DNA of 64,000 bases from Candidatus Aenigmatarchaeota archaeon (GTDB lineage Archaea; Aenigmatarchaeota; Aenigmatarchaeia; CG10238-14; SCSR01): positions 74,689-138,688 of the forward strand of contig JAVZHQ010000002.1 in the NCBI GenBank assembly GCA_038998335.1, written 5' to 3'. Made by a program: the position numbers. Of this stretch, positions 63,001 through 64,000 are shown piece by piece (positions within the stretch are counted from its first letter, which is position 1; every line of letters starts with the position of its first letter).

Positions 63001-64000
63001 CCATAAAACTGTCTCTAGACTTATAAACACCCATTTAAGTATGTTTGTTGATATCCAAAAATTTGAGCCTTTTAACGTGCAAATGGTTAGATTAAAACCT
63101 GGAACCGATATAAATGGTATATTTAGATTTCTTTCGGTAATGGATAAACTAGAAACAACTAAAAAATAGCTTCTTTTTATACCAAATTAAATTACTTGGT
63201 TTGAAGATTTAAATCGCTTTGAAGCGCTTCAAAGCGATATCTTACCCAACCCTGACCATCTTTTTCAAACCTTTCTATTTTGTCTGTTCTTTTAGCCATA
63301 TTTGAAAGTAAACCCCTTAGCCCTGAGGTGTCTTTCCACCCTAGTTTTTGTGCAAGATCCTTGTAGCTTATTTCTTTACATTCTTTTATAATAGCTAAAA
63401 CTTCTTCCATTTTTGGTGTTAAAGGTAATTGAGATTCTATTTTTTCTATTTGAGTCATTATTTCAGTTTTAATAGGTTCTGGTGAAATTTCTGCCGTTTT
63501 TTTAAGAGATTCTATAGAATTTTGAATTATTTCAAATCTTTTTGACATATTTTCATCGTGTTGCTTTAAAATTTCTTTTATCTCATTAACAGTCATTAAA
63601 GGAATTTCAAACTTAGACAAAAACCAGTCCTTTGAAACCATTTGAGTCTCTATTCTATTCAACGAAGCCTCGATTTCTTTTAGAGCCCTTCCTGTATACC
63701 CAGCAGCTATGCCTAATTGAAGAGATTCTTTTTCAAGCTCTAGGGTTTCTGATTGCGGTGTTTCTGGTTGAATTTTGGTTTCTGAAGTAGCGATTTGAAG
63801 CGCTTTGAAGCGCTCTTGAAGCGCTTTTTCATCGCTTTGAAGCGCTTTTAAATCGTTTGAAGCGCTTTGAAGCGCTTCAGGACTGCGCTTTTTTCTAAAA
63901 AACTGCAATAATCGATCAATTAAGCTCACTATTAATATTATGATTTACTTCCTTATAAACTTTCACTTTTTAAAATAAAGCTAGTAACTTCACTTTTTAT

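What a model noticed while it worked through the whole genome (the two positions that open the first line are those of the whole stretch)
63192..63929. A membrane-anchored wHTH gene holds the genome's only cluster of a 10-bp box: a centromere-like locus
g01028 encodes an N-terminal amphipathic helix, coiled coils and a C-terminal winged helix, and all seven sites of the box TTGAAGCGCT in the genome lie inside this gene (six near its 5' end, one near its 3' end). With its convergent HTH partner g01027 it is a conserved single locus of the order. It looks like an archaeal chromosome-to-membrane anchor carrying its own binding array, as RocS, RacA or RicO do in bacteria.
Evidence so far: Box places: calls 153, 165 (8 strand matches, all C2:137907-138564). 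Homologs in 74 of 118 order genomes, one locus each; of 30 loci, 24 show a 10-mer repeated 3-9 times, mostly at the same places in the gene, the box changing by lineage (GAGTGATTGA, CGATTGAATC, GCGATTTGAA) and read in different frames or lying past the stop. Homolog N-termini read like MGFFEKIKQIFSGKK. Model and Foldseek: C-terminal wHTH of MecI/MarR type, best E 0.006. No ParB in the genome.
(Added by a program. Inside this text positions count along the whole contig: contig position 74,689 is position 1 of the stretch shown here. "Call 12" and the like, gene names such as g00115 and contig names such as C1 are that model's own, and its searches are not shown. The text may have been shortened before it was handed on; [...] marks where a part breaks off. 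The agent that wrote the report below was given it as the finding of a first reader that could run no searches.)

Follow-up and report, generated by a model that had tools for sequence, protein, structure and literature searches.

The report
Archaeal gene carrying its own centromere
In a group of tiny archaea, one gene makes a probable membrane-binding, DNA-binding protein and hides inside its own coding sequence the genome's only array of that protein's likely DNA target, which would give the chromosome a single handle tied to the membrane, though binding has not been tested.

Summary
All 8 strand matches of TTGAAGCGCT in the genome lie in this gene. The array is selected as DNA: it is read in three frames, spaced in helical phase, keeps its synonymous positions, and often lies past the stop. 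It appears in 108 of 121 homologous loci, against 26 of 420 flank windows. New evidence ties box to protein: Glu/Gln at the start of the wHTH recognition helix predicts the direct-repeat box type, also in held-out loci (14 of 18 versus 0 of 35), while the partner HTH does not; on well-supported tree branches this is not significant (p 0.125). An origin role is unlikely: a better origin candidate lies 25-89 kb away in 14 of 14 cases, where skew flips in two genomes. A non-homologous protein with the same design fills the ancestral slot in a sister family. Best reading: a single-protein DNA-membrane tether with a built-in, origin-proximal centromere-like site, working like RocS/RicO/pSK1 Par but unrelated to them. 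Binding, membrane targeting and segregation are inferred, not shown.

The parts
63192..63929 (-). 245-aa gene (GTG start): amphipathic helix, variable linker, helical/coiled-coil core, C-terminal winged helix
   Evidence: no curated Pfam or NCBIfam family over cut-off
63888..63929 (-). codes for the N-terminal amphipathic, basic helix (residues 1-14), predicted membrane-targeting sequence
   Evidence: hydrophobic moment 0.85; family median 0.71 (70 of 88 at 0.6 or more) against genome background median 0.39, 95th percentile 0.70; the genome's six MinD-like tails score 0.49-0.86
63789..63880 (.). 5' array: about nine tandem 10-11 bp units (core A[GT]CG[AC]T), six exact boxes spaced 10, 11, 21, 20, 10 bp; lies in the linker-coding DNA
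   Evidence: codon-resampling null 0 of 5000; three reading frames; covered by contigs of other studies (records 15 and 30)
63429..63746 (-). codes for long helices (residues 62-167), predicted oligomerisation region with the conserved G-x-A-A-G-Y and K-D-W motifs
   Evidence: oligomer state not tested
63237..63416 (-). codes for the winged helix (residues 172-231), MarR/ArsR-like fold
   Evidence: pLDDT 94-98; Foldseek best E 0.0024; VIA-align Z 9.3, rmsd 2.5 over 66 residues
63330..63332 (-). codon 200 (Thr here), first turn of the recognition helix; Glu/Gln at this column goes with the direct-repeat box type
   Evidence: best of 202 columns
63213..63238 (.). 3' site: 26-bp perfect palindrome of three cores just after the wing-coding DNA; in 35 of 107 homologous loci the equivalent site lies past the stop codon
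   Evidence: 86 of 118 genomes; found in 66 of 68 loci examined; its best column makes 7 errors on box type against 2 for the main protein
63930..64000 (.). start of an upstream intergenic stretch of about 530 bp, 80% AT, continuing on the end of contig C1
   Evidence: C1-C2 junction inferred from G090

Best explanation
A single-protein chromosome-membrane tether whose centromere-like site is written into its own gene. Shown by sequence analysis: the gene holds the genome's only helically phased array of a short dyad, kept by selection on DNA, and box type changes with the recognition helix of the encoded winged helix. Inferred: oligomers (through the long helices) bind the array cooperatively, one wHTH pair per helical turn; this clusters many weak N-terminal amphipathic helices, which together grip the membrane, as described for Noc and RocS; one locus 25-90 kb from the probable origin is thereby held at the membrane, so that newly replicated origin regions are positioned and parted (with membrane growth, SMC or the FtsZ/MinD machinery; no dedicated motor seen). 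The array sits in the variable linker because there it costs the protein little, keeps site and specificity inherited together, and probably also represses the gene.
For: Only cluster in the genome and in 8 of 8 other genomes tested, so there is no regulon. DNA-level selection: three frames in 55 of 68 loci, 436 of 491 spacings in helical phase, dyads at the 5' linker in 95, mid-gene in 20, 3' end in 72 and past the stop in 35 of 107 loci against 0 and 2 in two control parts of the gene; synonymous codons identical in 143 of 149 box positions versus 501 of 797 elsewhere. Cognate reader: E/Q at residue 200 in 15 of 15 direct-repeat loci and 2 of 53 others in the first set, 14 of 14 and 4 of 39 in held-out loci; on all branches of the best tree 12 independent pairs, 7-9 the same way, none opposite. 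Amphipathic basic N-terminus. Position 25-89 kb from the ancestral cdc6 slot in 14 of 14 same-contig cases; in family f3 the ancestral slot is 5-18 kb from canonical cdc6, directly beside a PRC-barrel gene. A protein with no detectable homology (hhalign 1.6%) shows the same helix, 10-bp-period arrays, coiled coil and wHTH in that slot, while its relatives elsewhere show neither feature. No ParB_N; the four ParA/MinD-type ATPases scanned score best as MinD and all six end in amphipathic tails.
Against: No binding, localisation or phenotype data. On well-supported branches only 4 independent pairs exist (3.7 same way, 0 opposite, p 0.125); three E-S-G loci keep palindromic arrays and three more fall under the threshold. 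13 of 121 loci show no array. The distant homologs in f3 (type III, hhalign 98%) have no intragenic array and weaker helices (0.29-0.49). 4 of 34 high-quality order genomes have none of the three forms, and nothing was found in the other 253 phylum genomes with this profile. No ATPase or partition gene is a conserved neighbour of the main family. Origin proximity is partly shared synteny, and the skew at the slot flips from plus to minus, the opposite of the bacterial origin rule (recalled), so the slot could be a terminus.
Confidence: 0.55

Rival explanations
1. An autoregulated, membrane-associated regulator or sensor: the arrays are roadblock operators (5' and 3' sites looping the gene shut) that set the level of a protein whose real job is elsewhere, for example non-specific nucleoid-membrane bridging or a divisome role.
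For: The array starts a median 53 nt after the start codon; the fold is MarR/ArsR-like; centromere-binding proteins commonly repress their own operons (PMC5016525 passages and section 8); RicO keeps much of its function without its specific sites.
Against: No second site in any of 9 genomes tested; nine phased units plus mid-gene and 3' sites exceed what repression needs; the design arose twice in one chromosomal slot.
Confidence: 0.22
2. A division-site or terminus marker (Noc-, MatP- or SsgB-like in effect): the membrane-bound complex marks one chromosome region for the FtsZ ring rather than segregating origins.
For: N-terminal amphipathic helix as in Noc; PRC-barrel (CdpB-like) gene adjacent in f3; an ftsZ and a tyrosine recombinase lie within 27 kb in G000 and G057; skew polarity at the nearby slot is terminus-like by the bacterial rule.
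Against: Noc uses scattered sites and a ParB fold, absent here; the slot holds canonical cdc6 with ORB-like G-string elements in f3 and f5; the array is 44-59 kb off the skew switch, not on it.
Confidence: 0.1
3. A replication origin with its initiator, iterons lying inside the initiator gene as in lambdoid phage O genes (recalled), replacing the lost canonical Cdc6.
For: Phased repeats next to an 80% AT stretch; the families with the main form are those that lack canonical Cdc6.
Against: Those families have a different 127-aa wHTH exactly in the cdc6 slot (79 of 118 genomes, 0 of 23 in f3), followed by AT-rich DNA with 21-22-bp-period repeats; skew flips there and not at the array in G057 and G061; type II arrays coexist with canonical cdc6; an amphipathic N-terminus is unexplained.
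Confidence: 0.07
4. The box is read by the convergent partner HTH or another factor, and the host gene is incidental.
For: The partner accompanies 66 of 68 loci.
Against: The direct-repeat type occurs with at least five different partner recognition helices and the commonest partner helix occurs with both types; best partner column 7 errors against 2; partner-only loci L110, L115, L116, L119, L120 have no slot gene.
Confidence: 0.04
5. Low-complexity protein repeats in a disordered linker, produced by slippage, with no DNA function.
For: The main array lies in a length-variable, low-confidence linker (48-132 aa to the conserved core).
Against: Period 10-11 is not a multiple of three, three frames, both strands, rare codons (GCG 4.9% of Ala), copies past the stop, concerted change at three separate places.
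Confidence: 0.02

Closest known systems
RocS (Streptococcus), RicO (Staphylococcus aureus), pSK1 Par, RacA
   Same: Three-part design: winged-helix DNA-binding domain, coiled coil, amphipathic helix that needs oligomerisation to bind membrane; no motor ATPase of their own; origin-proximal or plasmid centromere-like sites (10.64898/2026.03.06.710092 abstract, section 8 and first part of Discussion; PMC11500499 passages).
   Different: Order reversed here (helix first, wHTH last); MarR/ArsR-like rather than MerR-type wHTH; no DUF536 match; ricS and ram sites are 9-25 sites over 600-700 kb, here one array inside the gene. That pSK1 Par binds direct repeats beside its gene is recalled (paper not held).
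Noc (Bacillus subtilis)
   Same: N-terminal amphipathic helix followed by a variable spacer; weak helix made effective by clustering on DNA (PMC4331003 passages).
   Different: Noc is a ParB-fold CTPase with scattered NBS sites (search listing); no ParB domain here.
TubR/tubC and ParR/parC plasmid centromeres
   Same: Blocks of short direct repeats at one locus coated by a small (winged-helix, for TubR) protein that also represses its operon (PMC5016525 section 8).
   Different: Those sites lie upstream of an operon with a filament NTPase; here the site is intragenic, no NTPase is linked, and the protein has a membrane helix.
SegAB/segS (Sulfolobales) and HpaAB (Haloferax)
   Same: Archaeal chromosome segregation with a centromere-like repeat next to the gene of its binding protein (PMC12139799 and PMC13722703 passages).
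   Different: Both use a ParA ATPase; SegB is ribbon-helix-helix; the word amphipathic does not occur in either text.

Membership tests
RocS / RicO / pSK1 Par | N-terminal DNA-binding domain and C-terminal amphipathic helix | tested here: not met
   order is reversed
RocS / RicO / pSK1 Par | MerR-type wHTH | tested here: inconclusive
   best fold matches are MarR/ArsR-type; an unlisted family is not excluded
RocS / pSK1 Par | DUF536 module | tested here: not met
   not among the 9 Pfam families listed at E up to 1
RocS / RicO / pSK1 Par | central coiled coil that oligomerises | tested here: inconclusive
RocS / RicO / Noc (working principle) | amphipathic membrane helix | tested here: met
   by sequence only: hydrophobic moment and charge; membrane binding itself not testable
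RocS / RicO / Noc (working principle) | loss causes mis-segregation or misplaced division | not testable with these tools
   no phenotype data for these uncultured archaea
ParB / Noc | ParB N-terminal CTPase domain | tested here: not met
   no match in the protein or the genome, 90% complete
SegAB / ParABS / TubZRC | linked partition NTPase | tested here: not met
   none among conserved neighbours of 122 non-redundant loci, 53 of them with 3.5 kb or more on both sides; an AAA_22 ATPase is linked only in f3
SegB | ribbon-helix-helix DNA-binding domain | tested here: not met
   the DNA-binding domain is a winged helix; whether G000 has a SegB elsewhere was not tested
Centromere-like site | cluster of phased repeats unique in the replicon | tested here: met
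Centromere-like site | bound by the cognate protein | tested here: inconclusive
   covariation with residue 200, not significant on supported branches; no binding assay
Iteron origin with initiator | lies at the replication skew switch | tested here: not met
   switch at 298-311 kb in G057 (array 360.8 kb) and between 220 and 226 kb in G061 (array 267.4 kb); G000 and G022 too weak to judge

The most novel reading that the evidence does not exclude
A self-contained archaeal centromere cassette: one gene is at once the centromere and the kinetochore-like membrane anchor, its site and recognition helix co-evolve as a readable code, and the same solution evolved twice from unrelated coiled-coil/winged-helix proteins in one origin-proximal slot, in a lineage that also swapped its canonical Cdc6 origin for a small winged-helix initiator.
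Probability: 0.4. Interest if true: 0.9.

Novelty: new variant of a known kind. Interest (0 to 1): 0.76.

Why it matters
How FtsZ-dividing and DPANN archaea position and segregate chromosomes is open (PMC7617429 and PMC11381335 passages); the archaeal systems I found described rely on a ParA ATPase. This family offers a 740-bp, one-gene candidate with a named site, a named specificity residue and natural variants for reciprocal tests, so the question becomes testable in vitro and in a surrogate host without culturing the organism. If it works, it is also a compact, orthogonal DNA-to-membrane tag. Searches found no description of it; they cover open-access text only.

Tried and rejected
Family libraries: no Pfam or NCBIfam model over its cut-off; ESM Atlas hits all under 0.9, leads only. 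Viral origin: one IMG/VR hit, a chance match in an unrelated peptidase-like gene. Two phylum hits outside the order are other wHTH regulators. Whole-genome skew of G000 and sampled skew of G022 are too weak to place an origin. My first idea that CTTCACGT boxes past the stop of type III genes are their own sites was dropped: the same boxes stand at the same syntenic place and upstream of the AAA gene whichever gene fills the slot. My early note that genus g45 lacks the partner HTH was wrong; it is divergent and fused. A second covariation (Asp at 201 with ATCGAT cores, 7 of 7 against 5 of 28) rests on one clade. One search had an off-by-one column error, corrected. The TATAAC-N3-GTTATA palindrome is not origin-specific: it also precedes an HTH regulator gene. 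The type II box is not exclusive at 10 letters (26 of 55 matches in the genes). Rfam and tRNA scans found nothing at the locus. No RNA holder listed. Earlier findings of the scan were not open. Rows dropped before counts: of 78 genome loci with a hit, 2 false hits, 2 duplicates, 1 frameshifted and 5 type III (68 kept); of 80 metagenome loci, 27 at 90% identity or more or partial (53 kept). The array criteria were chosen after seeing the first set.

Full report
1. The observation. The gene at 63192-63929 (minus strand, 245 aa) holds all 8 strand matches of TTGAAGCGCT in the 1.009 Mb assembly. Six lie in a 5' array with spacings 10, 11, 21, 20, 10; degenerate units fill the gaps, giving about nine tandem units at 63789-63880. 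The seventh site is a 26-bp perfect palindrome at 63213-63238. The core A[GT]CG[AC]T occurs 8 times in 120 bp here and at most twice in 120 bp anywhere else. The other dense 10-mer clusters of the genome are a repeat-protein gene at C1:3.5-8 kb and three purine runs. Contigs from other studies cover the array, so it is not an assembly artefact. Sources label close homologs Candidatus Aenigmatarchaeota.

2. The array is a DNA element. In this gene the box is read in all three frames, and resampling codons from genome usage gave at most 3 boxes in 5000 trials against 8 observed. Among six relatives, synonymous codons are identical at 143 of 149 box positions and 501 of 797 others (the relatives are not independent). 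Of 121 non-redundant homologous loci, 108 carry an array by my criteria, against 26 of 420 flank windows. In 68 loci with palindromic cores, 436 of 491 spacings are multiples of a helical turn and 55 loci use all three frames; of 107 loci scored, dyads lie in the 5' linker in 95, mid-gene in 20, at the 3' end in 72 and past the stop in 35, against 0 and 2 in two control parts of the gene. The box changes by lineage at all places together. In eight other genomes every copy of the lineage's box lies in or at this gene (32 of 32; 19 of 19).

3. The protein. The model has an N-terminal helix (3-12), a low-confidence linker, long helices (62-167) and a confident winged helix (172-231) of MarR/ArsR type. 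No library family passes its cut-off. The first 16 residues are amphipathic and basic throughout the family (median moment 0.71, 82 of 88 with charge +2 or more; background median 0.39) and score like the tails of the genome's own six MinD-like ATPases (0.49-0.86). Homologs were found in 74 of 118 order genomes and, with a profile, in no other order among 371 phylum genomes apart from two false hits; 102 representatives at 50% identity; no real viral hit.

4. Which protein reads the box. One box type is a direct repeat of TCAA-TC units. In the first 68 loci, Glu/Gln at residue 200, the first turn of the recognition helix, marks 15 of 15 such loci and 2 of 53 others; the five best columns all lie in the wHTH, and the best column of the convergent HTH makes 7 errors in 66 loci. 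In 53 held-out metagenome loci under 90% identity, 14 of 18 Glu/Gln loci and 0 of 35 others have this type; over all 121 the column is the best of 202. On a tree built without the helix columns the residue changes 12 times and the box 10 times; supported branches give only 4 independent pairs (3.7 the same way, none opposite, p 0.125), all branches 12 pairs with 7-9 the same way and none opposite. This is strong but not conclusive evidence that the gene's own product binds the array.

5. Where it lies. C1's end joins C2's end by comparison with G090. The cdc6 in the window (1597-2682) follows lysS with no gap and is the divergent kind. Families f3 and f5 also have a canonical cdc6, preceded by AT-rich DNA with ORB-like G-string elements (consensus recalled) and followed by the polymerase D small subunit gene. 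The families with the main form lack it and carry in that exact slot a 127-aa wHTH (79 of 118 genomes, 0 of 23 in f3) followed by AT-rich DNA with 21-22-bp-period repeats. Fourfold-site skew switches at that slot in G057 (298-311 kb) and G061 (220-226 kb), not at the array, 59 and 44 kb away; G000 and G022 are too weak, and the polarity is opposite to the bacterial origin rule (recalled). The array gene lies 25-89 kb from the slot in 14 of 14 same-contig cases, 31-74 kb on the five contigs over 400 kb; shared synteny makes these cases dependent.

6. The ancestral slot and a second invention. In f3 the order dnaG, 2'-5' ligase, AAA_22 ATPase, PRC barrel, slot, kae1, partner HTH lies 5-20 kb from canonical cdc6. 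The slot holds either a distant true homolog without array (type III; hhalign 98%), nothing (g32, g35), or in g36 and g30 a protein with no detectable homology (1.6%) but the same design: amphipathic start (0.56-0.62 in four of five), exact 10-bp-period arrays in the linker and mid-gene (clear in the five g36 loci, degenerate in L118), coiled coil, C-terminal wHTH. Its relatives elsewhere in the phylum show no such arrays in the loci examined. Together the three forms cover 30 of 34 high-quality order genomes. PRC barrels act in archaeal division but are often found in housekeeping neighbourhoods (10.1101/2023.03.28.534520 passages), so this link is weak.

7. Mechanism. Shown: a unique, phased, DNA-selected array inside the gene; covariation with the recognition helix; an amphipathic N-terminus; a position near, but not at, the likely origin. 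Inferred: oligomers coat the array, the clustered helices grip the membrane (the avidity principle of Noc and RocS), and one origin-proximal locus is tethered, in a genome with SMC and two FtsZ but no ParB_N match. A regulator with no target but its own gene needs another job, and tethering is the one its anatomy suggests; autoregulation probably accompanies it. I give 0.55 to tethering for segregation, 0.22 to autoregulation of another function, 0.10 to a division or terminus marker, 0.07 to an origin.

8. Comparison and novelty. It works like RocS, RicO, pSK1 Par and Noc but fails their membership tests: reversed domain order, no DUF536, no ParB fold. It differs from SegAB and HpaAB by having no ParA partner. 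Papers seen: RicO preprint (abstract, section 8, first part of Discussion); PMC5016525 (passages, section 8); passages of PMC11500499, PMC4331003, PMC12139799, PMC13722703, PMC7617429, PMC11381335, 10.1101/2023.03.28.534520 and 10.64898/2026.05.13.725050 (nothing relevant); abstract of 10.64898/2026.07.16.738847. Searches found no description of this family. Verdict: a real feature, a new variant of a known kind, interest 0.76.

Noticed in passing
G000:C1:751017-751893 (L347:2517-3394); L380-L409: In families lacking canonical Cdc6, its slot holds a 127-aa wHTH (79 of 118 genomes, 0 of 23 in f3), AT-rich DNA with 21-22-bp-period TTTATGAACTTTC repeats and an 85-aa wHTH; skew flips there in G057 and G061. 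A candidate new origin and non-Cdc6 initiator that deserves its own study.
   Followed up: partly
L111:4823-5476(-), L112-L114, L117, L118: Type II protein with amphipathic start, 10-bp-period arrays, coiled coil and wHTH, not detectably homologous; L117 is a short form lacking the middle. Scattered single copies of its box (29 of 55 matches) might be further sites.
   Followed up: partly
   Followed up: partly
window 1597-2682 (-): The genome's only Cdc6 over cut-off is the divergent, lysS-linked kind; its winged helix differs from the canonical ones in the helix recalled as contacting ORB.
   Followed up: partly
P0030, P0068, L012, L013; L014 downstream ORF: Homologs of about 340 aa carry a C-terminal extension that looks nuclease-like by eye; in L014 a similar domain is a separate downstream gene. 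No NCBIfam match.
   Followed up: no
G000:C1:356233; G057:C2:301310 and 739411; upstream of canonical cdc6 in L104, L110, L115, L118-L120, L303, L305: Conserved TATAAC-N3-GTTATA palindrome before cdc6/dp1 and before an HTH regulator gene; in G057 the two copies lie at the two skew turning points.
   Followed up: partly
window 62424-62660(-), 59270-59533(-), 59630-59893(+): Three more small winged-helix-like genes within 4 kb; further small wHTH genes are the commonest upstream neighbours in relatives (21 and 14 of 122 loci).
   Followed up: no
G000:C1:795235-796047; L011, L018, L147: Tyrosine recombinase 6.5 kb upstream in G000 and upstream in 12 of 122 loci; upstream neighbours are otherwise variable.
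   Followed up: no
G000:C1:23073, 61200, 376840, 570955, 625035, 631058: Six MinD-like ATPases, each ending in an amphipathic tail, in a 1 Mb genome.
   Followed up: partly
L096 (G059:C3:65143-65614): The homolog is split by a frameshift while 5' and 3' boxes are kept.
   Followed up: no
G000:C1:3585-8200: Long repeat-protein gene with many repeated 10-mers, the only other dense cluster in the genome.
   Followed up: no
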